The notes beneath the pieces are model-generated. The model saw only the letters and a list, made by a program, of their open reading frames with translations, did not search any database and was not told where the DNA came from. Positions 7,234-47,282 of a stretch of DNA of 64,000 nucleotides are shown piece by piece (positions within the stretch are counted from its first letter, which is position 1; the number at the start of each line of letters is the position of its first letter). The stretch spans positions 31,408,048 to 31,472,047 of the forward strand of contig NC_057732.1 in NCBI RefSeq assembly GCF_004010195.1, read 5' to 3'. The translations under genes were made by a program, and so were the position numbers. This DNA comes from Chiloscyllium plagiosum. Taxonomy: Eukaryota.

Positions 7234-7443
7234 TATACAGTTCTGTGTTTCTGCCGAGAAATACGCTCTTCTGTCTGGTTCAATTCATTCTGACAATGAA
7301 GCAGCTGCTGTCTTAGTTTGTTGACCTCTGTATCATAGCTGTCAGGAAACTGATCAGCTTTTTCCAACTCTTGCCTTTGGCGCTCCAATTCAGCAGTAAA
7401 CAACTTGGCATCCTGTAATAACTTAACCTCAGACTCCTGCGTC
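7234..7443 (-). CDS. CCDC146: CCDC146 third coding exon (210 nt, TQESEVKLLQDAKLFTAELERQRQELEKADQFPDSYDTEVNKLRQQLLHCQNELNQTEERISRQKHRTV)
   Basis: Matches human TQESEVQLLQNAKRF...ADNFPEAFSTEVSKMREQLLKYQNE; acceptor tattttcag|, donor TA|gtaagg; open frame throughout. Confidence 0.95.
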
Positions 7444-7584
7444 CTGAAAATACAAATAAGTTCTTCCAGTTATAAGGCAGTTATAAGCCCATTACTTAAA
7501 GTATATTACAGAAATAATTTAGAAAAACATAAACAAAGACAAATTATAGAATTTACTTAACTATCTGGGAAGTTACACAGAATG

Positions 7585-7716
7585 GGCATTTAAACGGGCA
7601 TTGGATAGGCATATGGAGGATAGTGGGCTAGTGTAGGTTAGGTGGGCTTGGATCGGCGCAACATCGAGGGCCAAAGGGCCTGTACTGCGCTGTATTTTTC
7701 TATGTTCTATGTTCTA
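7585..7716 (+). mobile_element. CR1 3' end fragment
   Basis: gggccaaagggcctgtactgcgctgta + (ttctatg)n tail. Confidence 0.75.
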
Positions 7717-9187
7717 ATATTTCAGATTTCTGAACGGAAATAGGTATTAATTGAAATAGAACTGATAATACACCAGCTGCTAATTTAAAAATCCAGTAAT
7801 TTGCACTATGAAGAAAACGTAAGTTGCAATAAGAACCTTGGTCTCTGTTTATCAGATGACAAGCTGTAAATTCTGATGCTTTTTAAGTCATTTCCAGAAA
7901 GAACCCTAACTTGGGGACTGTGCTGTTTGCCTACAGCCCTGTTAATTGATCCAGGAGACTTTGATGGATCTCACCATATTAGATAGACATATCGAAATCT
8001 TGAATCCTGACAGTAAACATTTAGAATGCGTATATGTTTTTTGATAAACTAATACCTTCTTGCCATTCAATAATATAGTCTCCCCGGATTATTGGGGATT
8101 ATCTTGTTTGATGGATGTAACTTCAGCAGATGATCAAGAAAACCCTAATTTGGGCATGTAAATGTGGTTTCAATTAATCATGTATCAAAGTTCTAAAGGC
8201 CAATCAGGAGAATCTGTGAAGAAATTTCCACACAAAATTAATCGTCAAAGAAATCCTTCTGAGAGTTTTACAGTAGTAAGCACACATAGGCTCAAATGTT
8301 TTCTTCTGGAGGGCTCTAATATTGATGATTTCAGGAATGTTGTCAAATGAAAGGAGGGAGTGTTGGTGATGTTGCGAAAGACATAATATAGTAACTCCTA
8401 CATAATATGCTGTTTCACAACTTGGTAGCTCACAATACTAGTGAATCAAGTTTTCTTTTAATTCTTCTGGTTCCCCATCTCTTTCTTCAACTCCCTCTCC
8501 ACTTCTTCCACTTCATGTAATGTGAATTTATGTAAGTATGGTGGACTATCACTTTATGAGGCTGATGTAATATAATGATGACATCATCTGTCATATTGTG
8601 TGGGAAAACACCTTACTCAACTTTGCTGCCTGTAGAGTGAACACTTCCACAATGAAGTCCCTGCTGTTTAACACTTTGGCCTCTTGGTCTTTCTTGGAAT
8701 TTAATATCATGAAACTTCAAGGCATCTCCTCCTCCACAAATGATTATGAATCTTGAATTTGCTTTGGGCTATAGTGAAGGTCCATTCTTGATCTGTCCAG
8801 TCTGTAACTGTTGTTTCAAGAAGCCACAGGTTTGCTCAGTCAAGACTTAAGGTAACGCAGGTATCTCATTATATCAGCACCCTGCATCTGTACTTGAGTT
8901 CCTGACATTGAGGGCATAGCCAGTCTACCATGTTCTGGGTCAAATAGAGGATTCTATGAGAATTATGCATTATGAATTTGTCATAATTACTTCCAGAAAA
9001 CTGTGATAAGACCTGTTTGATTTGCTGCTGCCTGGTGCACTCTATGATGCCCTACATCTGTGGCAACCTAGCAGTGTGGGTGAGTGCCAGTGCCCTTCCT
9101 TAGTTGCCAGCTTCAGTGAGATAGTATCAAAACATAAGTTGCTGGAAAAGCTCAGCAGATCTGGCAACATCTGTGAAGAGAATTCAA

Positions 9188-9225
9188 AGTTAACGTTTCG
9201 GGTCCAGCGGCCCTTCCTCAGAACT
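9188..9225 (-). ncRNA. Minimal type I hammerhead ribozyme motif in Penelope pLTR
   Basis: Minus strand AGUU-CUGAGGA-A-GGGCC(GCUG)GACCC-GAAACGUU-AACU: stem I AGUU/AACU, intact core, palindromic ACGU stem III; one C.A mismatch in stem II. Confidence 0.7.
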
Positions 9226-9442
9226 GATGGTAGGTAGGAAAATGTCTGTTCATATGCAGTGGGTAGAGTGGGGGAGGGGTAAAGAGTAAACGATAGGTAG
9301 GGACAGAGCCCAAAGTGAGAAGAACAGTTGGACAGACAAAGGAGTCAATAACAATCTGGCTGGGAGGGTGAATAGCTGTTAATGGAAACATTTAGTGGCT
9401 AACAACAGATAGTGTGTAATGGCAGACTATGTGATGACAAGA

Positions 9443-9659
9443 TAGAATGGTGCTGGAAAAACACAGCAGGCCAGGCAGCATCTGAGAAGCAGAAAAATCG
9501 ATGTTTCAGGCAAAAGCCCTTCATCCAGAATCTTGTTGAAGGGCTTTTGCCTGAAACATCGATTTTCCTGCTCCTTGGATGCTGCCTGACCTGCTGTGCT
9601 TTTCCAGCACCATTCTAATCTTGACTCTAATCTCCAGCATCTGCAGTACCCACTTCTTC
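9443..9659. mobile_element. Penelope pLTR inverted-repeat (hairpin) insertion with 16-bp TSD
   Basis: ~80-bp arms; TSD ctatgtgatgacaaga at 9427-9442 and 9660-9675. Confidence 0.85.
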
Positions 9660-10174
9660 CTATGTGATGACAAGACTGGTGTGTTGGTGAGGGGCTAGGA
9701 CATACAGGAGTTCAGGCCCTAAAATTGTTGAATTCGATATTGAGGTGTAAAGGGTCCCCAAGCGGAAATGAGGTGTTGTTCTTCCAGCTTGCACTAAGCT
9801 TCACTGAGGTACTGCTGCAAGCCTGTCAGAGAGAAGTTGGCCAGGAAATAGGGTGGTGTGTTAAAGTGGCAGGCAACTGGAAGCTCAGGATCTTTTTTGT
9901 GCACCGTCTCAGAGTCTTTTTCGTTTCCCCCATGTAGAGGAGACTACATTGTGAGCAGCAAATGTAGCAACTTGATTGTGAGGTGCAAATAAAGTGCTGC
10001 TTCACCTGCAAGGTACGTCTGGGCCCTTGGATACTGAGGAGGGAGGAAGTAAATGGGCAGGTGACAGAAACCTGTCAGATTGGGCACAGAATAATTGATG
10101 TTGCTAATGTTACTGTTGCCAGAGCAGATTGGGACAAGCCAGAGGGATTCAGTGCTTCTGATCTTTGCTGAGAT

Positions 10175-10335
10175 ATTAGATTCCCTACAGTGTCAAAACA
10201 GGCCCTTCGGCCCAACAAGTCCACACCAACCCTCCGAAGAGTAACCCACCCAGATCCATTCCTCTCTGACTAATATACCTAATACTATGGACAATTTAGT
10301 AGAGCCAATTCACCTGACCTGCACATCTTTGGATA
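10175..10335 (-). mobile_element. HE1-type SINE 3' fragment
   Basis: attagattccctacagtg..aacaggcccttcggcccaacaagtccacac. Confidence 0.8.
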
Positions 10336-10932
10336 TGTTGAAAGCCAACAATACCAGCCAAAATATTCACTCCAGTTCAAATTGATATATCCAGTAAGTG
10401 TTCAATTCTGTCTTCAGGAAAGCATGATTACTATCGTAAATTGGTCTTGGATGGCTGGAAATTTATTTTCTGTCTCATGTAATCAACAGATGGATACTCT
10501 GGTGAAAACCCAGATTATTTCTTGTTTTCTGAGAGGAAATGGATATATTTCTTTCCCTAGTGGTTTTGGTCCCTAGTGGTTTGGTTCATAGGAACTCTTT
10601 TCTGGAATGGCACATTATGGCTCTGACTTCTAACTTTACAATGAGACAGCGCACTCATTCTAGTCAAATAGCTCAGTTCCCTGGATTAATGATAGGTCAG
10701 CACAGACTTGGAAGGAGAGGGAAGTACCTATCTCACTTTGATCCCCTCAAAAAAATTGGTGGAGTTGCCAGAGAAAAAAAATCAAATCCAAATAACATTT
10801 CTAAGTAAAACATTTGTTATTGATGAATTTAGCATATCATAAAATAATTTCCCTAAGGACACGCAGGTTTTCAATGAAAAATGATTACCAATGCAACAAT
10901 CAATCATTAATAATTATCATTTAGTGCTGTAC

Positions 10933-11015
10933 CTTCTTAAAGCTTCATGCAATAGAATGTATTTGGATTTCAAATGACCAATTTGAGTTCCTGCAATTTT
11001 TCCAGCAGAAAACAA
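10933..11015 (-). CDS. CCDC146: CCDC146 second coding exon (83 nt, LFSAGKIAGTQIGHLKSKYILLHEALR)
   Basis: Manual translation matches human [27 protein letters not shown]; acceptor ttctaacttccag|, donor AG|gtacag; phases 0 to 2 fit both neighbouring exons. Confidence 0.92.
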
Positions 11016-11444
11016 CTGGAAGTTAGAAAAGAAAGTTATGTTTTAGTAATAGTGTATTGAATATACAATAATTATTACTTATTACACAATCCAATCAGAA
11101 TTAGTGTGGATGATATTTAACATTTCTATCTTAAATAGTTTATCACAATGTCATTCATAATAAATGATCTTATACTTGTAAAACTGCAGACATACCAGGC
11201 TTGGAAATCTGTGTCATAATTATTCTGTACTACGCAGTTACTAGGTTCCAGTCAGAACCAACAATATATGAACTTTTCATAACAGCAACCCAGTGGGGAA
11301 GTTTATTCCAAAGCTGTGGACTCTGTACAAGTTCAAACAAGTATAAACAAGTCCATGAGCACTGGCTGAATACTCACAAGTGTGACATGATTGATCTCTA
11401 ACAGTAGTACTGTCCCAACATTACATACACCAATTATAATACAT

Positions 11445-11646
11445 ACAGGCTGTCCATGGGCTGTGAACAGGTCCATTCTTGAGTCCATTCGCAAGTTGAT
11501 TTGTACGGAAGTTGGAACATAATGTGGAAATGTAAAATAGCCACTTGTAGGTGCAGAAAACATTTGTATATATCAGATCTTTAAAATTACATCTCCCAGA
11601 TGGGATTGGTTGTAAGTTGGATGTTTGTAAATTGGGACCTCTTGTA
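11445..11646. mobile_element. Decayed Tigger/pogo-like MITE
   Basis: TA-flanked cagg.../...cttg ends with internal gtaagttgga repeats. Confidence 0.4.
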
Positions 11647-12465
11647 ATAGTAATTAATGGTGTTACACTGGATTGGGACTGATGATTTCTTCCAGTCCTG
11701 ATTTTGAGAAATTGAGTGCAGTCAGTGAAATGATACCTATTTCCCATGAGATTGATAAGCATCCACCTCACCATGGGTGAATCCTAATAATGCTCATCCA
11801 GCTGACAAAAGGTTCTGTGTTCTCTGCAGTTCTCCTCTTAGGAGTCTGGTTAACGAGACTAAACATAGATTGCCTTGATAAACAAAATCAATTTATGTTC
11901 AGGTTACATCTCTGCCTGGACTTCGCTACACAACCCTTGATGGACTCTCTGTAGGAAATATCACTCAATGGATCACATGAACTGTTGTGCAGTCTTATAT
12001 TTATCCTGTCATGGTGAGCAGAATAGGACCCACAATGTAGCAATTTCCACTCTCATGCATATCATTAGAAATGGGGAGAAGCCTGACCCCTAAAATAGCA
12101 AATTAAGTTTTCCTGATTTGAAGATTTGTACTTCACATGAAAACTGCTTTTTTTAACATTTAAATGGTCTAGTGCTTCACTAGTTTGGTACCCCATTTAT
12201 CATAGGCTGGAGCTGCTCCTGGTATATTCTCCTACTCTCCTCATTGAACCAAGTTGATCCAAGTACTGTCCCTTTACAGAACACTTCTAATGGACTCCTA
12301 CAAGAATTGCTGAAGAACAATGGAAGAAAGGCCAACAAAAGCTAACTCCATACAATTTAACACAACATTAAAATAACAAACACAATTCAGTAGTTTTCAA
12401 ATGGAGGTCCATGCATACCAGTAGGTTTGTAGAGACTTTTCAGAGTTTGTCATATAATGTGAAAG

Positions 12466-12902
12466 AGTTGAGCTATAGGGAGCGACTGAATAGGCTGAGA
12501 CTATTTTCCTTGGAATGTTAGAGGCTGAGGGGTGACCTTACAGAGATTTATAAAGTAAGAGGGGCATAGATAGGGTAAATAGTCAAGGCTTTTTCCCTTG
12601 GATGGGGGAGTCCAAATCTAGAAGGCATAGGTTTAAGGTGAGAGAGAAAAGATTTAAAAGGGACATAAAGGGTAACTTTTTGCGCAGAGCGTGCTGCTAG
12701 TATGGAATGAGCTGTCAGAGGAAGTGGTGGAGACTGGTACAAATACAACATTTAAAAGGCATCTGGATAAATAGAAAGGATTTAGAGGGATATGGGCCAA
12801 ATGCTGGCAAATGAGACTAGATTTATTTAAGGATATCTGGTCAGCATGGATGAGTTGGACCGAAGGGTCTCTTTCAGTGCTGTACACCTCTATGACTCTA
12901 TA
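12466..12902 (+). mobile_element. CR1/HER1 LINE 3' fragment
   Basis: ttgagctataggg..gactgaataggctg...ctctatgactcta tail; same family as 4933-5690. Confidence 0.85.
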
Positions 12903-14665
12903 AATCTGGCCTTGCAGGTAGTTGGTATATGACCTCCTGAGCTGTCACTATCAGAGGTATAAACCCATGTTGCTACCAGCTCCCTCAGTTGCTGAATCAG
13001 TTGAATATCACTGAGGAGAAGCACTGAGCATTGCAAGGGCAGTGAATGTATCATGAATGGGGACCTTCAACGTTCATCACAAAGAGTAGCTTGGAAGGAT
13101 CCAGAATGATTGAGTTGACTGAGTTTTGAAGGACATATCCACCATGACTGGACTTGTAGCAGATAGTAATTGAACCAACAAAAGGGAAGAAACTTATTTG
13201 ACCTCATCCTCACTAACCTAACTATTGCAGATGCCTCCCACAATAACAATATCAGCAGGAGTGACCAGTGCAGTCTCTGTTCAGATGAATTCTCATCTTC
13301 ACAGTGAGGGTACCCCCAAATAGTTTATGGAGTACCACTGTCATACAATGTTGGATAGACTTAGAACAGTTGTAGCAGTTCAAAACTGGGTTTCCTTGAG
13401 ATGCTCTGGACAATCATCAATAGCAGCAAAATTATTTAAGCGAGGCAATCGTCTTGCAGTACTTGCTACATTTTTAATCCAGAAACTCAGACAATGTTCT
13501 GGGAGCCTGGGTTGAAAGCACATCATGGAAGCATTTGAATTCAATAAAGTAGCTGGAATTAAGAATCTAATCATGGCTATAAAATCCATTGCCAATTGTC
13601 GGAAAAATAACAATCTGGTTCTTTTGAAGATTTATGCTACAAAACAAGCCACATCCTTAGCCAAACTAATTCAAAATAGCTGCAAAACTTCTGCCTACCC
13701 AACAAAGTGCAAAATTGCTAATATATGTCCTGTCCACAAAATGTAGGACAAATTGAATCTGCATTAGTCTACTCTCAATGTGTTGCGATACGCAATCAAC
13801 GGTTCTAACAACTGACATTTACTCAGCATAAGCTGCTTAGACTTAGTTCTGCCAGGGTACTTGTCTTTAGCTTCGTTAAAGCCTTGGCCTAAGAAGAGTA
13901 GAATTTCAAAAGTAAACTTGCCATAGCCCCATTCTCCTATTAGAGAAAGATGATTAGTGGTGTTTAACCTCAGGATCACTGTGCTTCAGGCAAGGCCAGA
14001 GGGACCTTTAGAAAGAGGGATCTTCATGATAAGCTCAGCCAACACAGGAATTGAGCTTGTATTGTGGCTTCACACTGCATTGCATGAGGTAACAGCGATT
14101 GCTCTGTACATACAGAAGCATTTGTTGCATCAAGGAGCCATAGTAAAATTGGAATTGATGGGAATTTCAGGAAAATCTTCATAATTTGGAGTTATAAATC
14201 AAAAGAAAGGTGGTTGTGGTTGTTGAGAGCCAATCTCAGCCCCAAGCCATTGTTGCAGGAGTTCCTTATGGCAGAATCCTAAGCATTGTCATCATCAGCA
14301 ATTTCATCAATAGCCTTCCATCTAACAAGGTCAGAAGTCGGGAGGTTGATACCGTGTTCAACAGACTTTGCAACTTCTCAGATGCTGAAGTAGTCTGTAC
14401 ACACATGCAGTAAGAACTGGCTGGGTGCATGTGACATTTTCACCACACAAGTGACAGGCAATGATGATCTCCAAAAAGAGATAACATGATCATTCCCTCT
14501 GGATGTCCAATGGCATTATCATCCTTAAAACCATCATCAACACCCTAGAAGTTACCAATGATCGAAAATCTACCTCGACCAGCCTTGTAATTACAACTGA
14601 AAGTCAGAGATAGGGAATTTTGCACTGAGTAACTTGGCTCCTGACTCTTCAAAGTTTATCCACTA

Positions 14666-15285
14666 TGGATTTGTTGTTGGTCTGTTCGCTGAGCTAGTAG
14701 GTTTGTTGGCAGACATTTTGTCCCTTTTCCAGATGACATCATCAGTGAAGTGTTGCCTCCTGTGAAGCCCTGCTATACTGTTCCGCTTTGAGTTTATGTG
14801 TTTCTGTTTGAGCTGTTTCTGGTCGGTGCCAATTCTGGTTTTCCATTGCAGCGGTCTGTATATTGGGTCCAGGTCAATGGCGGAGTCTGAGGAAAAGTAC
14901 CTTGCTTCCAGGAATTCCCTTGCTGTTTTTTATTTGGCTTGTCCTAGTTTCGTCGTGTCGTCCCAGTCAAACTTATGGTTCTTGTTGTCCGTGTGTGTGG
15001 ATATCAGGGAGAGTTTCTCATGTCATTTGGTTGCTAGTTGGTGTTTGTGGATGGGAACAATATACAAACAACTGCAATGGAAAACCAGAACCCCGCACCA
15101 ACTGGAAACAGCTCAAACAGAACCACATAAATTCAAAGCGGAACAATATAGCACTGTGTACAGGAGGCAACACAGCACTGATTATGTCATTTAGAAAGCA
15201 GCTGAAACGTCTGCAAACAAGCCTACCAGCTCGGTGAACAAACCAACAATGATCCAACCAGATCCCAAGCTACAGATGTTCATGA
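14666..15285. mobile_element. Penelope-like element with inverted pLTRs flanking a GIY-YIG C-terminal remnant
   Basis: ~200-bp inverted arms; internal minus-strand HQLATK..HKFDWDDT..LGQAK..AREFLEA; degenerate 15-bp TSD aaagtttatccacta/aaactttgtccacta. Confidence 0.85.
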
Positions 15286-15637
15286 AAACTTTGTCCACTA
15301 CCTACAAGGCAACTGTTTGGTGTGTGATGGGATACTTTCCATTTGCTTGTATAATTACAGTTCCAACAGCTCTTCATACGCAGGATTGACGCCATTGTGG
15401 ACAGAGCAGTGTGCTTGATTGACACCCTCATCCACCAGTTTAAACATTCAGTCCCTCTACCACTGGCAAGCTGTGTGTACCATCTATAGGATATACTACA
15501 GCAACTGCCAAGTCTCCTTTGACAGTATCTTCCAAACCAGTGACTTTCATCTGCAAGATCTCCTCTGAAACATACACCATCCTGATCTGGAATGTTATCA
15601 CTATTTCCTCACTGTCAATGGGGCAAAATCTCAGAAC

Positions 15638-15755
15638 TTTGTTCTGAAGAAGTCATACCCGACTCAAAACATTAACTCTGTTTCTCTGTTCACAGATGCT
15701 GCCAGCATTCGCTGTGTTTGTTTCAGATTTTCAGCATCCACAGTATTTTGCCTTT
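15638..15755 (+). mobile_element. Penelope pLTR fragment with degenerate hammerhead
   Basis: GTT-CTGAAGA-AGTC..GACT-CAAAACATT-AAC followed by the pLTR tail seen in other copies. Confidence 0.6.
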
Positions 15756-15909
15756 GTTATGGAATTCTTTCCTTTGCATCACTATGATGCACCAAAACTA
15801 TATGGATTGCAGCAGTTCAAGTTAATGGGTCATCGCCACCTACTCAATGACAATTAGTGATCACTCAAAATTTAAGACTGAATATTAAAAAATTTGATAG
15901 TAACACAAA

Positions 15910-16260
15910 ATCATGAGGGGCATGGATAGGGTAAATAGACAAAATCATTTCACTGAGGTGGAGCAGTCCAGAACTAGAGAAATAGGTTTAGGGTGAGAGG
16001 GGAAAAATTTAAAACAGACTTAAGGGACAACTTTTTAACGCAAAGGGTGGTGCGGGTATGGAATGAACTGCCAGAGGAAGTGGTGGAGGCTGGTACAATT
16101 ACAACATTTAAAGAGCATCTGGATGGATATATGAATAGGAAGAATTTAGAGAGATATTGGCCAAGTGCTGGTAAATGAGAATAGATTAATTTAGGATATC
16201 TGGTCAGCGTGGATGAGTTGGACCAAAGGGTCTGTTTCCGTGCTTACATCTCTATGACTT
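15910..16260 (+). mobile_element. CR1/HER1 LINE 3' fragment
   Basis: RGEKFK.DLR.NF.TQRVVRVWNELPEEVVEAGT; ctatgact tail. Confidence 0.85.
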
Positions 16261-17379
16261 ACACTGCTTAGATGCACTGTCTTTTGGTCAAAGTACACAT
16301 GGAATGATTCCAAACGTTAATGGAATTTCAGTTTCTTGAATTGGTGCAGAGTCAAATCTTGAGGTGCATCAACAATTAAACTAGTCTCAAATCATCCTTC
16401 AACTGGTGTCCTATTTCTCTGGCTGGCTGGCAGCTGCTTTATCAAACTAAGTGAATCAAATTCTGTTCTTAAGTATATGGAATTTTTACAGGTGTATTGA
16501 AAGATCATATCCTTGAAACCTTGCACTTTCCTCTGAGAAACAAGAAACGATGGCTTTTATTTGGAAGGGTTTACAAATGCCACTGCCAAACATCTCAGAG
16601 CATAGATGGGCACACCTATCTCAGTGATATGTGTAAGTAAATACTTTTCCATTTAATATACTTGTTTACTTATAAAAATGCTTATTTTCTGCAGCAATTT
16701 CACATTATGAATGGAACTGATATTGTAAAAGATTACTATTCAGACAGGAGAGTCTATTATTAGCAATCCATTTAAATAGGGGTGCTTCAGACAAAAAGAA
16801 GCTCAAGAACCATTGGTTTAAAGAAACCAGCTATTTGATACCAGTCAAATGTACTCCGTATGAAATATCATATTAAAGGACTCCTCTGTGTAAAACTCCT
16901 ATATAAATGCAGTTTGTTTTTATTGTTGTTGATTGCACATGTAATTTGTTAACAAGCCAGTAATTTACAGTTCTTTAATCACCACCTCTCATGCTGCAAA
17001 TGGCACAAATCTGCATATCTGAGTTTGCAACCATTTTTAATGTTATTATTGCAGGTAAAGTAACTATGCTGACAAAAGACAAACCAGTAAAAATAATTTA
17101 AAATAGTCATATTAGAAACAATCACATTTTCAGAGAAGAGAAAGAGATTTAGTTGACGCTTCAATTATTAAATCTGTATTGTCATTTCAGAAATTTTGAT
17201 GATCCATGGTCTTGTTTAATGGTTTAGTTGTACAGGCTGCTGATACAATACTAGTGGTTTGCAACTGATATAGTTGATGTCGAAAAATTAACTGAAGTTC
17301 AGATGCCAAAAATTTTCAGTGATGTTACTAATGGGACAAAATCCACTTAATATTGTTAGTTCATTTCAAAAAGAGTTTA

Positions 17380-17900
17380 GAAATGAGTAGTTGTGATCCC
17401 TCAAACCAAGAAGTTCAAGGATTTCAGGTGGGCAGCAATGGTAAATGACATAATAGGTGTTAAGCTGAATACGTTTGACATTCATAGCATTCTCCTGCAC
17501 AGCAGCCCTCAGATCTATTAAACTTGCAACTCCACTAATTTCTCCCTCTGGGTACCTATTTACATTCCCATCTGAGTGTCCATACTGACACATGCCTTCA
17601 CCTTTGAGCTGCTTCATATCTAAGCTTCATTGTCACCCTCCACAAATGCAGTCCTTTCCTATCTCCACACAGTTCCCACAACCACAACTTTAAGCTTTCA
17701 TTCCTTGCAGAAGAATGCAAAACTCTCATGAGCGGCAGAGCTGGGGTTGGACCTGTTGAAATGGCCTTGATGGTTCGCCTCTGTCTTTTAGGGTTGCAGG
17801 TAGTTAAGGAAAATGCAGCCGACGCTGCTTCTGGTATCGTTCTAGTGCTATTAGTGTTGACATTTTTGCTCCTTTTGTTCCAAATCAGATACTGGGTATA
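17380..17900 (-). mobile_element. Probable Harbinger remnant
   Basis: Weak peptide similarity (AMNV..IQL; TCNPKRQRR) to Harbinger transposase and SANT ORFs. Confidence 0.35.
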
Positions 17901-18172
17901 GAGCCTCAAAACTGAAGGCTGGCAGTAAGTAAGTGCAGATTATGCAATTGAGGTCAGGTGGGTTAAACTGACTCCCAAGAAGTTAGAAATCACCTGTCAA
18001 GTAGTGAGGATATATTCACAGTAGAAGTTTTGTGAGCAACAATCTCTCATGTGCAATTTCACTCTTGAAGGCTTCCTTAATTTTCAGTAAACAAACAACT
18101 CCCATTGTGTTCTTATCTGGTGAGTTCCATACGGCCCTGAGATGATTGGGGATTTCAATATTTTTATTACTT

Positions 18173-18394
18173 ATGGTCAGTTCTTCTATAATGCAATAGT
18201 TGCTTTCTTGTGCAACCCCATGTAATAGAAAAATCACACTTTAGAAACAGCGCTTAAGGTGTTGGTGCTGTAATCATGTTACAGCCAACACATGCTTTAA
18301 AAGTTTGCGCTGTAGAAACAGCGTACCCAATTCGTCAATCGCATTACAGCGAATTTGCGTTGACGAAATGTGCATTATAATGGAACGACCTGTA
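18173..18394. mobile_element. Tigger/pogo-like MITE (~220 bp), family copy 1
   Basis: TA flanks, imperfect TIR ggtc.gtt....tataatgca; similar copy at 25288-25502. Confidence 0.7.
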
Positions 18395-20339
18395 TTTTAC
18401 AGCACCATTGGGTTTTTTTTGCACTCACCTAAAAAGTCACCTGGGTTAAAATAGGCAGAATCCTGTCCCACATTTTGGAGCTAAAAACCTGAACTACCCC
18501 TCTTCTCCCTTGCTAGCTGGATGGCTGAATCTTATGTGACAGATATGAACGGTGGAGTAGAAAAGCATTCTACACATGTCCAACCAGCTTTCTAGCCTGG
18601 TAATGCCTAATGACTAGGTGGAAGCACTGGAAATCCTAGGTCTTGATTTGGATCAGGATTCTTGATAGTTCACGATAAAAAAAATTCCGATTTTCTACCA
18701 TGGTTTAATATTTAAAATGCTACAATGTGTAATATTTTATGCATTTTTCTCCAGAAGGAAAACTACATATTCATGTATTTCAATCCTACTGCTTTAAATA
18801 CCATCTCTGTCCAAAAGCAGGCAGTTCAATTTGTTTGGCTTGAAAATGTCAAAAGTTCATGATATTCCATTGACATACTAACATAAAGATCAAATTTGTG
18901 TCTATAATTTTTTCTTTTATTTTCAGTACAAAAACTGCAGAGAGTATTTAAAAGAAAAACTGCATTGCTTTACAAGAAGTAACAGCATGACCTGATATAT
19001 ATGCTGTTGTAAGTAAAATTAATGTTTGCACCGTTTAGAATTAATGTTTATATCCTGACATCTATGACTAACATTTTCAAAAAAATGTTGTTATGGAGAA
19101 AGTGACAAATGGTCTCTCAATCTGTTCTGAACTAGGATCCACTTGAAAACTAAATGCGTCATACATTTGTACTTGATTTTCTGCCTTGCAAAATATATTT
19201 GAGGGAGACCAATGTAACATTGTTTGTATGATTAATTCATTTTCTGGCAAAAGTATTTCAAATTCAATACAGCCAGCTATGTAGCATTCTGGGATTTAAT
19301 TTTACAGAAGCAAATGTTCTGTATATTAACAGTGTGTTGGGGAATAATGAAAGTTTTTTTTAAACTTTGAATTTAAAAAAATATACGCTGTGGTTTATGC
19401 TTAAGTTATCATTTCAAAGACAAAATTGTGTTCAATTGCTGAGTGATCAAGAGTAGAGGGAAAAGGGAGGAGGGTCAGGCCTGTGTACAGTAATAAAAAT
19501 TGCTGGTGAGGATGTAGCAAAGAATGAGTGGAAGATAGTGGTGGAAAACTGATCATTTTGTTCAGGGACACGTGAATGAATCTGATTTCAGAGCTAGAAA
19601 GGAGAAAAGACATGAATTCAAAAGTGAGAACAAAAGTCTGAGGACTCGAATTTTTTTGCCCCATGAAGTAACGAGAAAAATAACAGGCGGATGGCTTCAT
19701 TGGGTGAGAGCACAAAATCTTACTCCTGAGATAAATATTAGTAATTATTTCCTCCTTTCAACTTTGAACTAAGTCAACTTTCTCACATATTTGTACTCAC
19801 ATATTTATGCATTATGAACTAAAAACTTACTGGAATTAACTTTACCTTTCTAATATTAACTTCTGCCCAGTTGTGATTATTGACACTTCAGGAACTTGAC
19901 TTCTAGTAGTAAGTTTGCCTGTTGACTTGGTCTTCATTCTTTAGTCTAGGTGAGTTCTTTGCTTTGAATGCCTCTAGCGAAATTTTGTCAATGCTCGGTT
20001 TCCTAGCTTTTGCTGTAAACTCTACACATGCAATAGATGTGTCCACGGGGATCAAGACTAGATGTGACCCTTGCCCATCATGGAGTCCAAGTGAAGAACT
20101 TCATCAGCTTCTGTTTCAGAAAGGTTGCTTAGAGTGAAGGATCAGACAGCAGGTTGTCTAAGGGTAACTATTCGGTGCTGAAGGCAAGAGAGCAGCTTGT
20201 GTCTGTCGGGAACTGTTAAGTGTCAACAGGAATGGGGCAGATAATAAATGTTGTTGAAAGGCATGGTGCTATGTAAACATCAGAGTGGTGTATGCTCCTG
20301 CAGCATATATGACAAATACAATGTATGTACATAAAGAGC

Positions 20340-20541
20340 TTAAAAATGTGTTGCCGGAAAAGCGCAGCAGGTCAGGCAGCATCAAAGGAACAGGAGAATC
20401 GACGTTTTGGGTATAAGCCCTTCGGGCATACCTGAAACGTCGATTCTCCTGTTCCTTTGCTGCTGCCTGACCTGCTGCACTTTTCCAGCAACACATTTTT
20501 AAGCTCTGATCTCCAGCATCTGCAGTCCTCACTTTCTCCTC
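20340..20541. mobile_element. Penelope pLTR hairpin insertion with 14-bp TSD
   Basis: Inverted arms; TSD tgtacataaagagc at 20326-20339 and 20542-20555. Confidence 0.85.
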
Positions 20542-21979
20542 TGTACATAAAGAGCATGGCAATGTGTGAAAAGGAACGGAGGAGCACGGTTTGTGGTGTG
20601 AAGACGATCTCCAGAGACAGACGTGCCAATACAGTCAGTCCAAAACCTGAAGTATTTCTAGTTTGGAGGCATTGGTCACAGTCTGGCAGTTGGTTAAATT
20701 CACATCTGGGGAGGAATGTCATTTCAGTCTGGGAATTAGGCCATAGTCAGTCCTGGAAGTCAAGCAAAATAAGTCCAGGCTTGTGGTTAGTCAATCAAGG
20801 CATCTTGCAAGTTCCTTTCAAGCGATACATCATGTCATAAATAAGCAAAGTGTATTCGGGAATTGGGCCATAGCCAAGCAAAGTGGTGAGTCGTACATAA
20901 ACCAGGACCAAGGCATTGAGGCCTTGCGCAGCTCATGCACAGAGACTGGCCTGGTTATATTGGAGAAATGAGGGAATAGATACAGTCATAGGGGGCAACT
21001 GAATATTGGATGCAATTTAGAGCAGGGAATGTGACTGGACAGTCTTGAAAGTGGGGTGAATCAAGAGAAAAGTTGAAGTCACTCTCGCCATGATCAAGGG
21101 TGGGTACAGGACCGGCAAGGTTATCAGCATCTTGATAGTGAAGGATTCCGGAATGAAACAGGGACATTAATTGTTGCGTGAGGGGTTCAATTGAAAGTTG
21201 GGGGTGTGGGTGAGGGTGAAGTATTACTGGGGTAAAGGGATTGTGGAAATGTGTGAGAGGTGAAGAATGGAGGGTAATATTGTGGGTCACAGCAGGAGCC
21301 AGCAATTCACTGCAGCAAATGCAAATCCTGAAGCTCGCCACTTCATTCAATAATCAACTGACCAATATGCTTTCAATACCAATATGGCAACACCCAAAAT
21401 GGGAAGAGTAAATAACTTTTTTCTGAAAGGGGACAGAGTTGATGGCTGGAATGTAGGCCAACTGAAGGGCTACTCCAAAAATTAGCATTTGGGTAATAAT
21501 TCCATATTAACCTTTGCCTTTAATTCACTCTTAGGTTGCATGTCTATGTAGCTCCTAATATGCAAAATAGGTCCAGGCAGAGACCAAATGACGTGGTCAT
21601 TTGGCCTAACTACCTGCTCTTCTTTTGTGTTTATCTCTATTTCTGTAGTCCCTTAGGGGCTAGAGCGAATTATTCACCCCCAAGAACACATTTTAATTCA
21701 AATTTGTAAGTTTCATTCGGGATTTTCTTTAGATCCTTTTAAAGGCTGTCATTTTGGTCTCATTTGTCTTGATTTGTTTTAGAGTTGCTTTAAAAGAGTA
21801 GCTCATTGTGACTTGATCTCATGAAGTACTACATGAAAGTACATTGTGGCTTCATTGGAATTGGGTGACCTCTCAAATTTATAATAGTTAATGTAACAAG
21901 GGGCACGCATTCAAAGCCTCATCTTCCTTTTAGGTAAAGGCAGATCATCACTAGGACTGCAAGCAATGAAATTGCAGAT

Positions 21980-22650
21980 GTCATATCCTCACACATAACA
22001 TAAAGGTAATTTGGAGAGGCCTGGAGTGGTGAATTGGAAGAGTTGGTGGGGGCAAACTCCTGGCAACTGCTTCAGGCCAAGACCACATGAACACCTTTTT
22101 TGGGATACGTGAAATGAGGTCAGGACCATCACTGTGCACAGGAGAGAAATTCAACAGCTGCAGACGCCACCAAGCATCTATGCTTTTAGTGGCTAAAAGC
22201 TGCCCTCTCATGCCACACAGCAATGGAGAATCATGTAGAGCACATGCTGGTTGGTGTCTTGGCCAGGTATAAGACTGACCTCTATGAGCTAATCTAGAAC
22301 TGGGGAAGGATGTCATGGATGAAGAGCGATAGAACCGTGGAATTTAATTTAGTGTTATCAACGATCTCCTGAATGCAAAAGGATCACAGCATGGGTCAAC
22401 CCTGTCATTCTTCTTGTTCTCCTCGAGTTGCTCCCAAAAACTGTGAAGATAAAAACTGTGCCAACAGGCTCCACCTGCTGAGGGAGAAAGAGCAAGACAA
22501 GAGCCACCATGTCGAAGGAGATCTCTCAGTTTCTGCAATTCAGTTATTTGCAATTCAGTGAAGCTCACTGTCAACAAAATCTCAGGATGTCCCAGGCCAT
22601 TGTTTTGTGTCAACTGCTGGACAAGGACCTGCAGCCATATGGACTGAATG
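21980..22650 (-). mobile_element. Probable Harbinger transposase remnant
   Basis: DPCCDPFAFRRS (cf. PGSCHDAFILR.S) and ACALHD (cf. ACC.LHN) peptides in the expected order. Confidence 0.45.
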
Positions 22651-24594
22651 GCAATCCTACTCAGGTAGCCCTATAGGTAATAGCTAGCCTTCATGTTTAT
22701 ACCAGCTTTTAGCTTTAGAGACTGCTGAGGGGCCTTTGTGGCATTTTACAGTCCTCAATTCATAAGTATACCTGGGAGATTACTGATGCTTTCTCGACAG
22801 GAGCCCAATAATTTATCTTTCTTTGTACCTTGACGCAGGGAGTCAGGCAGCTAGGACTTGCTGCCATTTCTGTTTACTGCAATTTCAGGGTACAATCAAT
22901 TACACACATACAACAAACAGAGCATCCTATCATAAAACAGCAGTTTTATACCCAGAAATATTAATCCAAGAAAAGGCCTATACAAATAGTTTAATTTGAA
23001 ATGAGTTGAAATCAAGCTGATTCTTGACCTTTTTATTTCCCATCAGTCAGAGGTTTTGAAAAGATAAGTTTCATGGGTGAAGACCTAATTCTGGGATAAT
23101 ATCAGTTCAATCCTTTAATGTTCAAAAATGTAAATATTTAGACTAGTACTTGAACTATTTTCAGTACACTATGTAATAAATTAAACTTAAGTATTTTTTG
23201 TGCAGAAAGCCTAGAGCAGATAGATTTCCAAAATAGGGTTCTGCAAAATTGCTGAAGTGAATGCTGAGTTACAAGGCAGTATTTAAATTCTCATAATTTT
23301 TACAAGAGTTGAGAGAGTTCTCTTAGGTGGTGAGGAGAGACAGATTGGGGAAGAAGGGATTAAATACGTGCTTTAAAACCTGTGCAAGGAAGATGGAAAC
23401 TGGAATATGGAAATGAAACAATACTGTTTGCATGCTAAACATAAAACAACTGTGAATAGCTCTTAAATAAAAGTGGTTGGAACCTAATACTGCAGTGTCC
23501 TCACAAAGAAAGTGTCACATTTTGAAGTGCATTATCAATTGCATTGTATTCAGCTTTGACATTTAAAGCACTGTATTTAAAAGGTTCAATGAAGTAACAC
23601 ATTGTGGTAAATTTTCAACTTGCTGCCTGTGCATAAAACTATTTTGAATCTGCTGCCTTTCATATGGAAACTTGCTGATTTCTATTTTCATTGAAATTAA
23701 TAGGCAGAATGATGTTTTGCAATTTTGAAAAGCTACCTTATTGTTTCAAAGAAATATCTAAGATCACAGTTTAATTCAGGCACTATTGAATGGCTTTGTT
23801 TGTAGAGAAAATCATAGCTACATTTTCATAAAATCAAAGAATTTTTCAAAGTTGGTTTGTATAAATTCTGTTACTTGTTCCAGATGCTTAAGAGTTTGCT
23901 TTGAGATTAGTTAATGTATCATTGTACGTGGGAAGGAGCTTTCTTCCTTAATTGAATGTCACCACTTCTGGTTGTCATGCATAAACCACAAGCCAAAGTT
24001 TCCAGTTTCAATACATATTTGAATGTTTGGAAATTGTTAGTTCCCTATATATTTTCTTGATTTGAAATAATATGCAAAAAAAATCAATGTAGCAAATTGG
24101 TGAATGGGTGGGATTTAAACATTTAAGTAATAAATTTGTTCATTTGCTCCTATGTTTCTGCAAGATTGCAGAGTTTATCGTCTCACTTTGAAACTCCCTG
24201 GAGTTATAAGCAGTTGATCGACAAATTCAGATGACTCTGTACTTTCTTCATTACATGGTGACAAGAGTAAGGGCTTAAGAGTCAAATACATGTCTGCCCA
24301 TTTTGCATGGCATTTAGGAAAGAGGGTTCAAAAAGTGAAAATCTTTCAGACATTGCAGCATAGCATTTACCACATCCCCACTACCAAAATCATTTAAACA
24401 TACTAAAGGTAAATTTCAGCATGATTTAATTAACTCAATAGTTCCTCCTTAAAATGTAGGTTTTGGAATCTTTCTGAGAAATTGCTGAAGTAAAAGACTA
24501 ATGTGTTATGTTATGGGATTTGTCTCTTAGTAACATGCCTCCCAACTGAGAACATACAAGCAGTTAATGTATTGAGAAACAGATAATTATGCAA

Positions 24595-25140
24595 TGCTTA
24601 CAGCATAGAAGGAGGCCACTGCACCCATTGTGTCCATGCCAGCTCTCTGGAAAAGTAACCCACTGAGTCTCAGTCATCTGTCATTTACCCATGGTCCTAC
24701 AATTATTTTCTCCAAATAACTGCCATTTTTTGAAGCTTTGATTGAATTTGCCTTCAGCGCACTCTTGGGCCAATGTATTCCAGCTCCTCATCATGGTTGA
24801 GAAAAAGCTTTTATCTCATGTTGCCATTGCTTTCTTTGTGAATCATCTTAAATTGATGCCTCTTGTTCTCTGTCCTTCTGCCAACTGGAACAGTTTCTCC
24901 CAACTTATTCTAAACCCTACTCCTCATAATTCTGAACAGATAATCAATTCTCCTCCTAATCTTCCTGTCTTCCAGGAGAACAGCCCCATCTTCTCCAATT
25001 CATCATCTAAGTGTAGTACCTTATTGCGGGAACTACTTGTCAATATTTTTAGTATACTCTCTAATACCTTCACAGCTTTCCTAAAATATAGTGCCCATAG
25101 TACACCTGTATATAGCTGAGGCCAAACTCATGGCCTATTG
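24595..25140 (-). mobile_element. Older CR1 3' fragment
   Basis: Reverse-complement similarity to CR1 3' ends (acagcatagaaggaggcca...). Confidence 0.65.
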
Positions 25141-25287
25141 AAACACTAAAACCATTGGAGACTGCAATATTCTCAGATCCAGTCTTCCTCCTTTTAGTGC
25201 GTATTTTCTGAGTACAAGTTACAGATATGTGAGCATACTCTTACTTCTCTCCTACCCTGCCTGGTATTGTAACCTTACTCTCATTTT

Positions 25288-25502
25288 ACAGTCAGTTCAT
25301 TTATAAAGGGATAGATGCGTTCTTGTGCAACCCTGCTTTATAGAAAAATTGCACTTTAGAAACAGCACTTTAAAGTGTTGGTGATGTAATCTTGCTACAG
25401 TCAACATACATTTTAAAAGTTCACACTTTACAAATAGTGTTCAGAATTCATCAATCTCGAATTCACGTTGAGGAAACATGCATTATTAGCAGAACACCCT
25501 GG
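25288..25502. mobile_element. Tigger/pogo-like MITE, family copy 2
   Basis: Aligns by eye to 18173-18394. Confidence 0.65.
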
Positions 25503-25564
25503 ATGTCTTTCTCTGTTTAAGGAGTGCAAATCTGGCAAACAACTGGAGGTGGAGCTTTCAATAT

Positions 25565-27003
25565 AGAGTCATAGAATCATAGAGATGTACAGCATGGAAA
25601 GAGACCCTTCGGTCCAACCCGTCCATGCCGACCAGATATCCCAACTCAATCGAGTCCCACCTGCTAGCACCCGGTCCATATCCTCCAAATCCTTCCTATT
25701 CATAGACCCATTCAAATGCCTCTTAAATGTTGCAATTGTACCAGCCTCCACCACTTCCTCTGGCAGCTCATTCTGTACACGTACCACCCTCTGTGTGAAA
25801 AGGTTGCCCCTTAGGTCTCTTTTATATCTTTCCCCTCTCACCCTAAACTTATGACCTCTAGTTCTGGACACCCCCACACCAGGGAAAAGACTTTATCTAT
25901 TTACCCTATCCATGCCCCAGCCTGTTCAGCCTCTCCCGATAACTCAAATCCTCCAACCCTGGCAACATCCTGTAAATCTTTTCTGAACCTTTTCAAGTTT
26001 CACAACATCCTTCCAATAGGAAGGAGACCAGAATTGCACGCAATATTCCAACAGTGGCCCAACCAACGTCCTGTACAGCCGCAACATGACCTCCCAATTC
26101 CTGTACTTAATACTCAGACCAATAACGCAAAGCATACCAAACTCCTTCTTCACTATCCTATCTACCAGCGACTCCACTTTCAAGGAGCTATGAACCTGCA
26201 CTCCAAGGTCTCTTTGTTCAGCAACACTCCTGAGGACCTTACCATTAAGATTAGATTAGATTAAATTACTTACAGTGTGGAAGCAGGCCTTCGTCCCAAC
26301 AAGTCCACACTGACCCTCTGAAGAGCAACCCACACAGACCCATTCCCCTACATTTACCCCTTCAGCTAACACTATGGGCAATTTAGCATGGCGAATTCAC
26401 CTAACCTGCACATTTTTGGACTGTGGGAGGAAACTGGAGCACCCAGAGGAAACCCACACAGACACGGGGAGAATGTGCAAACTCCACACAGATAGTTGCC
26501 TGAGGCGGGAATTGAACCCGGGTCTCTGGCACTGTGGGGCAGCAGTGCTAACCACTGTGGCACCACGCCGCCCGTAAGTGTATACGTCCTGCTAAGATTT
26601 GCTTTCCCAAAATGCAACACCTTGCATTTATCTGAATTAAACTCCATCTGCCACTTCTCAGCCCATTGGTACATCTGGTCAAGATCCTGTTGTAATCCTA
26701 GGTAACCTTCTTCACTGTCCACTACACCTCCAATTTTGGTGTCATCTGCAAACTTACTAACTGTACCTCTTATGCTCGCATCCAAATTATTTATATAAAT
26801 GACAAAATGTAGAGGACTCAGCATCGATCCTTGTGGCACTCCACTAGTCACAGGCCTCCAGTCTGAAAAACTACTCTCCACCACCACCACCCTCTCTCTT
26901 CTACCTTTGAGCCAGTTCTGTATCCAAATGGCTAGTTCTCCCCATACTCTGTGAGATCTAACCTTGCTAATCAATCTCCCATGGGGAACCTTGTCAAACA
27001 TCT
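25565..27003 (-). mobile_element. CR1/HER1 LINE, 5'-truncated, with nested HE1 SINE
   Basis: FDKVPHGRL...GVPQGS...FADDTKIGG...; (ctatga)n tail; short internal deletion near 25915. Confidence 0.92.
26250..26573 (-). mobile_element. Full-length HE1 SINE inside the LINE
   Basis: tRNA-derived head GGGCGGCGTGGTGCCACAGTGGTTAGC...GGTTCAATTCC (A/B boxes), (aatct)n tail, taag repeated on both flanks. Confidence 0.92.

Positions 27004-28392: not shown

Positions 28393-28393
<1 letters not shown>

Positions 28394-28424
<31 letters not shown>
28394..28424. repeat. (GA)n microsatellite
   Basis: Read directly. Confidence 0.9.
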
Positions 28425-34065: not shown

Positions 34066-34079
34066 GTTAGTGGAACATA

Positions 34080-47194: not shown

Positions 47195-47282
47195 TTTGTC
47201 CGCTACACACAAAAACAACAACAACAGGGTTTGCTCTGAGCTGTCGATGATCCGGTGCTCTGTCCCTCGTACCGGCTCCAGC

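What the first reader, a model, noticed from the sequence alone, without database searches (positions are those of the whole stretch)
9188..9225. Dispersed minimal hammerhead ribozymes from several Penelope families; best copy here
Seen: CUGAnGA-stem II-GAAA cores occur at 9188-9225(-), 35313-35349(-), 35357-35390(+), 43990-44023(-) and 61836-61875(-, CUGUUGA), with degenerate copies near 14.7k, 15.2k, 15.6k, 37.8k, 45.4k, 46.9k and 56.5k. All carry one extra nucleotide after CUGAnGA and a loopless, palindrome-like stem III (ACGU). Established: Penelope-like elements carry minimal type I hammerheads in their pLTRs, proposed to cleave as dimers. Inference: the 9188 copy is sense to the CCDC146 pre-mRNA, so intronic self-cleavage or pairing with another copy in the same transcript is possible.
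Basis: partly seen in the sequence, partly recalled or inferred. Interest (0 to 1): 0.7.

Follow-up and report, generated by a model that had tools for sequence, protein, structure and literature searches.

The report
Penelope ribozyme relics marking transcript starts
The hammerhead motifs are real but are decaying end pieces of Penelope-like jumping genes, present in about 226,000 copies in this shark genome, so the one inside the CCDC146 intron likely does nothing to that gene; the more telling pattern is that most short copies begin at the ribozyme's first bases, about 30 bases behind a TATA box, which likely means the element's RNA starts with the ribozyme and is copied uncut.

Summary
All five motifs are present at the stated places. 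They are minimal type I hammerheads in the pseudo-LTRs of Neptune- and Poseidon-type Penelope-like elements. The genome holds 226,485 intact-core motifs against 796 for the reversed control, and stems I, II and III covary between families.

9188-9225 is the best copy and lies sense in a CCDC146 intron. The intronic-cleavage idea is not supported: stem III is loopless, stem II has a mismatch, no compatible partner exists in the gene, genomic copies decay at near-neutral rates, and sense and antisense copies number 24 and 22. Only 2 of the 5 copies carry ACGU.

Beyond the finding, 123 of 198 Neptune-type copies lose homology within 8 bases upstream of the core, against 1 of 26 Poseidon copies. 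The edge lies about 30 bases behind a conserved TATA box. The RNA likely starts at the ribozyme, and the stubs are likely run-off copies of uncleaved RNA. I reached this before looking; the scan had already noted it on other DNA. No direct RNA 5'-end evidence.

The parts
9188..9225 (-). Minimal type I hammerhead, family A (Neptune type). Stem I 9225-9222 / 9191-9188; core CUGAGGA 9221-9215; extra A 9214; stem II 9213-9209 / 9204-9200 with a C.A mismatch; GAAA 9199-9196; palindrome ACGU 9196-9193; predicted cut after GUU between 9192 and 9191
9249..9254 (-). pLTR TATA box position (-33 from core C3), mutated here to TATGAA; family reads TATAAA; predicted start is the A at 9225
   Evidence: start site inferred
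9129..10063 (-). 5'-truncated Neptune-type Penelope-like element: GIY-YIG remnant (10059-9718), 3' pLTR, hammerhead and tail; 84-87% identical to its best genomic relatives over the 311 bases searched
9427..9675 (.). Family B fold-back insertion nested in the element above: 87-bp arms (9443-9529 / 9531-9617), two damaged hammerheads (ACAU), 16-bp target-site duplication
35238..35501 (.). Head-to-head family A stub pair (hammerheads 35313-35349 minus and 35357-35390 plus, both AUGU), joined at the hammerhead 5' edge, 12-bp target-site duplication; inside the FGL2 intron and the large CCDC146 intron
43890..44026 (-). Solo family A stub starting at the hammerhead edge (43990-44023; AAGU, stem I broken); upstream of the first coding exon found for CCDC146
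61800..62264 (-). 5'-truncated Poseidon-type element with GIY-YIG remnant, TATA-like box and hammerhead 61836-61875 (A6 to U, G10.1.U wobble)
20326..20555 (.). Family B fold-back stub pair, junction inside the hammerhead, 14-bp target-site duplication
56062..56580 (+). 5'-truncated family B Neptune-type element with GIY-YIG remnant and damaged hammerhead (core starts 56453)
14674..15249 (.). Inverted pair of Poseidon-type ends with damaged hammerheads (core starts 14745 minus, 15178 plus)
15643..15750 (+). Degenerate family A-like stub
37802..37900 (+). Degenerate family A-like stub
45405..45510 (+). Degenerate tail with partial hammerhead
46896..47000 (+). Family C pLTR with intact TATAAA (46896-46901) and broken hammerhead
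7234..40559 (-). Host gene CCDC146: coding exons 40559/40436-40293, about 11030-10932, 7443-7234; continues about 98 kb left of the window
34071..37447 (+). Nested fibrinogen-domain gene (FGL2 by recalled synteny), two exons
   Evidence: Fibrinogen_C, E 3e-79; gene name recalled

Best explanation
The motifs are pseudo-LTR hammerheads of several Penelope-like retrotransposon families, and the genomic copies, 9188 included, are likely inert relics; in the Neptune-type families the ribozyme likely forms the first bases of the element's RNA, and most dispersed copies are likely run-off cDNAs of uncleaved RNA. Shown: family membership, stem covariation between families, near-neutral decay of copies, a TATA box at a fixed distance (families A, A2, C), and a sharp 5' edge of short copies at -3 to -5 (A, A2, B) or up to -8 (C) from core C3. 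Inferred: (1) RNA polymerase II starts about 30 bases behind the TATA box, at the first base of stem I in A, A2 and B. (2) The element's protein primes reverse transcription at the tail about 100 bases downstream, as shown in vitro for an Anolis element. (3) On a promoter-proximal tail the cDNA runs off the uncleaved 5' end and gives a 120-150 base promoterless stub; on the distal tail it gives long 5'-truncated copies such as 9188. (4) Head-to-head pairs arise when cDNA ends at that spot snap back or two are joined. (5) In an active element the two pLTR hammerheads would pair through ACGU or AGCU and cut, removing a 34-base leader. The lone 9188 copy has no such partner, so CCDC146 would splice it out untouched.
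For: Membership: GIY-YIG remnants upstream, RT domains in longer relatives (RVT_1 E 4.8e-7), CX4CxxC linker typical of Neptune (PMC8557442 passage). Covariation in 118 motifs found with stem-free patterns: stem II pairs 2+3 formed in 111 (permuted mean 64, max 77), stem I pairs 1+2 in 92 (mean 40, max 56); stem III CG 55, GC 22, CpG-decay TG/CA 36, other 5; a separate family swaps C3-G8 for U3-A8. Decay: core vs tail substitutions 11.0 vs 15.5% (A), 6.6 vs 10.3% (B), 9.7 vs 9.8% (C); core CpGs 25-47% mutated; 23 of 187 hammerhead-spanning copies intact; 1 of 44 in family A, about 1.1 expected from those rates (my arithmetic). CCDC146: 24 sense vs 22 antisense, intact 2 vs 3; heterodimers with 9188 score -1.4 to +4.2 kcal/mol against -9.1 for its homodimer. 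5' edge: A 28 of 38, A2 12 of 14, B 66 of 112, C 17 of 34 within 8 bases, Poseidon 1 of 26, p 4e-9; same peak in a set picked by tail alone; 161 RNA reads from other loci lose homology exactly at -4, and 20 fold back there. TATA: -33 in 9 of 16 long A copies, -35 to -37 in 10 of 11 A2, -38 to -41 in 9 of 12 C, so the edge moves with the TATA box. Extra G at -5 in family B: 9 G vs 1 A, p 0.002. Uncleaved RNA is the main template in vitro (PMC11167929).
Against: No transcript 5' end was observed: the one usable RNA run showed no pile of molecule starts at the predicted start or cut site, a weak test. Family B, the most abundant, has no canonical TATA box (0 of 9 long copies, only a positionally fixed TTATC-like word). 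Poseidon D1 has a TATA box at -53 (7 of 12) but hardly any stubs. Core positions are slightly less mutated than tails in A and B, which my filter and subfamily differences may explain but weak selection could too. No full-length element with two direct pLTRs was found among 18 loci fetched, so steps 3 and 5 rest on the published PLE layout. The permutation test ignores relatedness; the independent changes number about six families. Relative to its best competing fold, the 9188 homodimer is no worse off than an intact copy (gap 12.1 vs 11.9 kcal/mol).
Confidence: 0.72

Rival explanations
1. The 9188 copy cleaves the CCDC146 pre-mRNA, alone, with another copy in the same transcript, or helped by element protein, and so affects splicing or expression.
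For: It is sense and intronic, has all 11 core bases, ACGU and a 4-bp stem I, and is the only intact family A copy of 44. Element protein switches on cleavage of the Anolis hammerhead in vitro (PMC11167929). About 374 fully intact family motifs exist as possible partners in trans. Domesticated intronic hammerheads are known in amniotes (PMC6155905 passage).
Against: Loopless stem III; single minimal motifs do not cleave and dimers do so weakly (PMC4209133). Stem II mismatch; local folds do not give the hammerhead (z 0.95 and 0.46). No compatible sense partner among 24 sense copies. No strand bias; intactness matches chance. Even a slow intronic cut need not block splicing (inference).
Confidence: 0.07
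2. The sharp 5' edge of stubs comes from the ribozyme itself (reverse transcriptase stalling or template switching at the folded hammerhead, or self-priming at its stems), not from a transcription start.
For: The edge coincides with the first base of stem I in A, A2 and B. Junctions of inverted pairs show microhomology within the hammerhead. Self-priming on an antisense template was proposed for PLE palindromes (PMC3846280).
Against: A stall would be expected at the 3' foot of the structure, not after the whole motif is copied (inference). Poseidon copies have the same ribozyme but 1 of 26 is short. In family C the edge reaches -8, beyond its 3-bp stem I, following its more distant TATA box.
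Confidence: 0.14
3. The edge is a 3' splice site just upstream of the core, as reported for Drosophila virilis Penelope, and stubs derive from spliced RNA.
For: A and A2 read as pyrimidine tract plus AG two bases before the core. In D. virilis the intron ends at helix I (PMC4209133).
Against: Short copies usually keep the G of that AG (23 of 32 in A, 9 of 12 in A2) and share no upstream exon; B and C have no AG there.
Confidence: 0.04
4. The stubs are an independent non-autonomous mobile family (retrozyme-like) that multiplies through ribozyme-cut, circular RNA.
For: Huge copy number; one 177-bp tandem pair with two intact motifs (L062); animal retrozymes derive from PLE pLTRs (bioRxiv 10.64898/2026.07.22.740005).
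Against: Stubs include the whole ribozyme instead of starting at the cut site, lack the promoter, are mostly solo or head-to-head rather than tandem, and match the ends of long protein-coding copies.
Confidence: 0.05

Closest known systems
Minimal hammerheads (min-HHR) of metazoan Penelope-like elements (Cervera and de la Pena 2014, PMC4209133)
   Same: In pLTRs; no stem III loop; palindrome at 15.2-16.2; extra base between 9 and 10.1; G10.1-C11.1; several families per genome; mostly solo copies, some close pairs on opposite strands; a U3-A8 core variant (reported there for Schistosoma).
   Different: About 226,000 motifs here against about 4,000 (coelacanth) and 9,000 (Xenopus) there, with different descriptors; stem II is shorter (4-6 bp); cartilaginous fish are not named in the text I read; that paper does not describe a TATA box or a fixed 5' edge at the ribozyme.
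Neptune and Penelope/Poseidon clades of endonuclease-bearing PLEs (PMC8557442, PMC3846280)
   Same: C-terminal GIY-YIG, CX2-5CxxC linker in the Neptune-type families, heavy 5' truncation, inverted head-to-head copies, optional tail, target-site duplications, putative TATA plus Inr in a pLTR (Adineta Pen2a).
   Different: Those passages do not place the start at the ribozyme or report a dominant class of 120-150 base stubs with a common 5' end. D. virilis Penelope is TATA-less and starts 46 bases plus a 75-base intron upstream (PMC2377424).
PAc, Poseidon element of Anolis carolinensis (Frangieh et al. 2024, PMC11167929)
   Same: Hammerhead about 100 bases upstream of the tail where reverse transcription starts; uncleaved RNA is the template; both DNA strands are nicked and extended.
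   Different: In vitro study of a Poseidon element; no start site mapped. The shark Poseidon families do not show the stub peak; the Neptune-type ones do.
Domesticated intronic hammerheads of amniotes (RECK, CTCL; PMC6155905)
   Same: Type I hammerhead, sense in an intron.
   Different: Those are canonical, with tertiary contacts, and conserved across species. 9188 is minimal, mismatched, embedded in a decaying element, and shows no sign of selection.
Animal non-LTR retrozymes (bioRxiv 10.64898/2026.07.22.740005)
   Same: Derived from PLE pLTRs; carry type I hammerheads.
   Different: Defined as tandem arrays; the copies here are solo or inverted.

Membership tests
PLE minimal hammerhead | Core CUGAnGA and GAAA, U16.1, H17 | tested here: met
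   9188 has 11 of 11 core bases and H17 = U; 61836 has 10 of 11
PLE minimal hammerhead | Extra base between positions 9 and 10.1, and G10.1-C11.1 pair | tested here: met
   9188: A9214, G9213-C9200; extra base A 97, U 21 of 118. C11.1 is U at 35313, 35357, 43990, 61836
PLE minimal hammerhead | Loopless palindromic stem III | tested here: met
   ACGU at 9188 and 61836; broken in the other three; CG or GC in 77 of 118 motifs, CpG-decay forms in 36
PLE minimal hammerhead | Compensatory changes in stems I and II across families | tested here: met
   111 and 92 of 118 paired vs permuted maxima 77 and 56; G-C, U-A, A-U, C-G all occur at the same stem positions
PLE minimal hammerhead | Self-cleavage as dimer or with protein | not testable with these tools
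   RNA reads gave no end pile-up; needs an assay
Endonuclease-bearing PLE, Neptune clade | RT plus C-terminal GIY-YIG upstream of the pLTR | tested here: met
   RVT_1 E 4.8e-7 in L196; GIY-YIG only weak in Pfam (E 0.02, below cut-off) with motif VYCI..YIG; window remnant 10059-9718 matches it at E 9e-16
Endonuclease-bearing PLE, Neptune clade | CX2-5CxxC linker before the endonuclease | tested here: met
   present in L195; upstream of the truncation point of the 9188 copy
Endonuclease-bearing PLE, Neptune clade | Placement in an RT tree with reference Neptune elements | not tested
   no reference set was available; clade names rest on the linker motif and on recall
Endonuclease-bearing PLE, Neptune clade | Full-length ORF between two direct pLTRs | tested here: inconclusive
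   none among 18 loci fetched; all ORFs broken or truncated
Domesticated intronic hammerhead | Stable stem III and loop-loop tertiary contacts | tested here: not met
   no stem III loop; 4-bp stem I; mismatch in stem II
Domesticated intronic hammerhead | Conservation at the orthologous site across species | not testable with these tools
   no relative genomes are held for this window
Non-LTR retrozyme | Head-to-tail tandem units each with a hammerhead | tested here: not met
   window copies are solo or head-to-head

The most novel reading that the evidence does not exclude
In shark Neptune-type Penelope elements the hammerhead is the capped first 34 bases of the transcript, placed there by a TATA promoter in the pLTR. 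Well over a hundred thousand genomic stubs are a fossil record of reverse transcription running off that uncleaved 5' end. The ribozyme would then be a leader-removal (decapping) switch that fires only when paired with the distal pLTR copy or helped by the element's protein, rather than the maker of the transposition template.
Probability: 0.55. Interest if true: 0.62.

Novelty: new variant of a known kind. Interest (0 to 1): 0.42.

Why it matters
For CCDC146 it likely does not matter: this is one of 46 such relics in the gene. For Penelope biology it bears on an open question, namely what the pLTR hammerhead is for and how the odd head-to-head insertions arise. If the RNA starts at the ribozyme and most insertions come from uncleaved RNA, cleavage is not what makes the template, and solo motifs, inverted pairs and long truncated copies follow from one priming rule. 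The prediction is base-precise (-4 in three families, about -8 in a fourth) and cheap to test. The genome also carries about one intact-core hammerhead per 16 kb, a large natural set for asking whether minimal ribozymes in introns are ever under selection.

Tried and rejected
Rfam 15 at E<=1 over the window: 6 matches, none a hammerhead; the miRNA-family hits at 9.45-9.6k are the fold-back insertion. RNA evidence: no RNA holder was listed for 7000-16500. Of two raw-read runs one laid nothing; the other showed CCDC146-strand reads near the 7443-7234 exon but only cross-mapping reads at the hammerhead and no end pile-up there. Laying that run on a long family B copy gave no pile of starts or ends. 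These are weak tests, neither for nor against cleavage. Search for a full-length element: the pair 3,255 bp apart on C7 is a 1.4-kb duplication; 16 loci with the longest open frames were all broken, many head-to-head. Pfam barely sees this endonuclease (E 0.02-0.12). Monomer folds do not give the hammerhead, as expected for a loopless motif, so they say little. Two script patterns were faulty and were redone: one search's motif pattern left out families B and C (redone; its dimer energies stand), and the Poseidon pattern (redone). The pattern cannot match family B, hence. In one search, 8 of 243 tail hits were dropped because they started late in the model, and family C intactness is undercounted by an alignment gap in stem I. 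The gene starting near 47.3k(+) could not be named by a call (no Pfam match). Literature: 7 searches found no paper placing a PLE start site at the ribozyme or counting these motifs in sharks; subscription papers (such as Arkhipova 2006) are outside the library, and I saw no supplements, which may list cartilaginous-fish motifs (PMC4209133) or start-site data (PMC11167929).

Full report
Observation. The five motifs are in the sequence as stated. At 9188-9225(-) the anatomy is a 4-bp stem I, core CUGAGGA, one extra A, a 5-bp stem II with a C.A mismatch and a 4-base loop, GAAA, the palindrome ACGU with no loop, and a predicted cut after GUU between 9192 and 9191. The other four are damaged: AUGU at 35313 and 35357, AAGU at 43990, lost stem I at 35313 and 43990, A6 to U at 61836. 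The seven degenerate copies exist. Two fold-back insertions were missed, 9443-9617 and 20335-20507. Rfam has no hammerhead match at E<=1.

Setting. The window lies in a 3.56-Gb genome. Its CCDC146 exon is 96% identical to a protein named from the bamboo shark Chiloscyllium plagiosum. CCDC146 runs on the minus strand, with coding exons at 40559/40436-40293, about 11030-10932 and 7443-7234, and continues about 98 kb to the left. A fibrinogen-domain gene is nested on the plus strand (FGL2 by recalled synteny), and the 35.3k pair sits in its intron.

What the motifs belong to. The 9188 motif ends a 5'-truncated element of about 10063-9129 whose upstream part encodes a broken GIY-YIG endonuclease. 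Longer relatives carry RT and the CX4CxxC linker that PMC8557442 ascribes to Neptune elements (passages). The element is split by a second family's hairpin insertion with a 16-bp target-site duplication. Clustering gave Neptune-type families A (9188, 35.3k, 43990, 37.8k, 15.6k), B (9.5k, 20.4k, 56.5k), C (46.9k, palindrome AGCU; its clade is assumed from the shared layout, not tested on protein) and Poseidon-type D (61836, 14.7k, 15.2k). A further family, A2, has U3-A8 in place of C3-G8: about 89 of the first 100 listed of 3,534 matches, control 1,780.

Abundance and covariation. Two stem-free patterns match 70,836 and 155,649 places against 699 and 97 for the reversed patterns: about one per 16 kb. 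A tail-only profile found 243 copies in 844 kb of tiles chosen without regard to the motif. In 118 motifs, stem II pairs 2+3 form in 111 and stem I pairs 1+2 in 92, against permuted maxima of 77 and 56; each stem position shows several Watson-Crick types, and stem III alternates between CG and GC. The permutation ignores relatedness, so this shows selection on about six source families, not on the genomic copies.

Is the 9188 copy functional? Of 235 scored copies 187 span the hammerhead and 23 pass an integrity filter; in family A only 1 of 44 does, and it is 9188. The measured rates (11% at 10 core positions, 47% at 4 CpG positions) predict about 1.1 such copies, so no special preservation is needed. 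Core and tail decay at similar rates (11.0/15.5, 6.6/10.3, 9.7/9.8%); the lower core values in A and B may be filter bias, though weak selection is not excluded. Within the CCDC146 span there are 24 sense and 22 antisense copies, intact 2 and 3; this is underpowered but shows no avoidance. PMC4209133 (parts 1-2 of 4 read: abstract, results, discussion) found no cleavage by a single minimal motif and low cleavage by dimers. In a double hammerhead stem I forms between the two copies (recalled model), so the partner must match. The only other intact sense copy is a Poseidon motif about 960 bases left of the window; it and the copies at 35313 and 43990 give active-form energies of -1.4, +4.2 and +3.9 kcal/mol, against -9.1 for a 9188 homodimer and -18.5 for a homodimer with unbroken stems (the model ignores the tertiary core, and the gap to the best competing fold is about 12 in both homodimers). 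The nearest sense copy, at 9490-9530, is damaged and locked in an 87-bp hairpin. RNA reads were uninformative. I put a real effect on CCDC146 at about 7%.

An unasked pattern. Most copies do not extend upstream of the ribozyme. Among copies not picked for length, homology to long copies ends within 8 bases of C3 in 28 of 38 (A), 12 of 14 (A2), 66 of 112 (B) and 17 of 34 (C), but 1 of 26 Poseidon copies (p 4e-9). Element bases are kept at -1 to -4 and fall to background by about -6 or -7 in A, A2 and B, and reach -8 in C. These sets require the core, so truncations inside it are excluded; a set picked by tail alone shows the same peak with a shoulder to +30 and a few copies near the cut site. 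In that set 87 of 215 Neptune-type copies are in head-to-head pairs, mostly joined at or inside the hammerhead. Reads laid on a long B copy drop about threefold at -4; 161 reads lose homology exactly there with mixed flanks, and 20 switch strand there. Long copies carry TATA[AT]A at -33 (9 of 16 A), -35 to -37 (10 of 11 A2), -38 to -41 (9 of 12 C) and -53 (7 of 12 D1); B has none (0 of 9), nor D2 (0 of 5). TATA to edge is 29-32 bases in A, A2 and C, the usual TATA-to-start spacing (recalled), and A and some B copies read TCAGTT and TCATTC around the -4 A, an initiator-like word (recalled consensus). In family B the base before the edge is G in 9 of 10 non-templated purines (p 0.002), as expected if RT copies the cap; A and A2 do not show it. 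In the 9188 copy the box is mutated to TATGAA.

Mechanism. Inferred: transcription starts at stem I. The element's protein primes at the tail, as shown for the Anolis element, where uncleaved RNA was the main template, both DNA strands were extended, and cleavage needed protein (PMC11167929, parts 1-2 of 4 read). Priming at a promoter-proximal tail gives run-off stubs; priming at the distal tail gives long truncated copies. Head-to-head pairs come from snap-back or joining of cDNA ends, in line with the self-priming idea of PMC3846280 (passages). In an active element the two pLTR motifs could pair through the palindrome and cut off a 34-base leader. A stall at the ribozyme is less likely because the whole motif is copied, Poseidon copies lack the peak, and the edge follows the TATA box in C. 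Splicing is unlikely because the AG is kept and B and C lack it.

Known or new. Minimal hammerheads in PLE pLTRs, their dispersal, opposite-strand pairs and the U3-A8 variant are published (PMC4209133). A putative TATA plus Inr in a pLTR is published for a rotifer (PMC3846280); D. virilis Penelope is TATA-less and starts further upstream (PMC2377424, passages). A preprint covers tandem retrozymes in one chondrichthyan (10.64898/2026.07.22.740005; part 1 of 5 and passages). PMC6155905 was seen as passages. Seven searches found no paper on a start site at the ribozyme or on shark counts; supplements and subscription papers were not seen. I noted the start-site reading; one search then showed that eight earlier scan notes, two from this genome, say much the same. 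They are unchecked and are not counted as support; one supplied the extra-G test.

Verdict. The locus is an ordinary relic of a known kind, and the intronic-cleavage idea is unsupported. The promoter-ribozyme layout is a probable new variant that makes the role of the PLE hammerhead testable. Interest 0.42.

Noticed in passing
G000-wide; L181-L192, L193-L198: A Neptune-type family with a compensatory U3-A8 hammerhead core, about 89 of the first 100 listed of 3,534 matches; 4 of 10 listed head-to-head pairs are separated by exactly 4 bases, the length of its self-complementary stem I strand.
   Followed up: partly
window 9427-9675: Family B fold-back insertion with 87-bp arms nested in the 9188 element; it scores as several miRNA precursor families in Rfam below their cut-offs, a likely source of false miRNA annotation.
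   Followed up: yes
window 35238-35501: The head-to-head pair lies in an intron of the nested fibrinogen-domain gene and of CCDC146 at once, so both pre-mRNAs carry a long hairpin; a possible RNA-editing substrate.
   Followed up: no
window 34071-37447: Two-exon fibrinogen-domain gene nested antisense in the large CCDC146 intron, the arrangement recalled for human FGL2.
   Followed up: partly
window 47160-47699: Open frame on the plus strand in a GC-rich stretch, head to head with CCDC146; resembles FAM185A by recalled synteny, not confirmed by a call. The CCDC146 start, and so whether 43990 is inside its transcript, is not established.
   Followed up: no
L062:2265-2698 (G000:C4:54.04 Mb): 177-bp tandem duplication with two intact family A hammerheads plus an inverted arm; a natural dimer-competent arrangement and a good assay substrate.
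   Followed up: partly
L173 near 8247-8500 (G000:C20:25.03 Mb): Poseidon ends in a 100-bp direct repeat plus an inverted copy, the repeat beginning near the TATA box.
   Followed up: no
window 4887-5693, 25562-27022, 12465-12908, 15915-16259: Fragments of a CR1/L2-like LINE reverse transcriptase (RVT_1, E 9e-15 at 4887-5645; clade name recalled).
   Followed up: no
tails of families A and A2, e.g. window 9181-9165(-): The tail just after the cut site reads as a pyrimidine tract plus CAG followed by ATG, a possible splice acceptor of the element.
   Followed up: no
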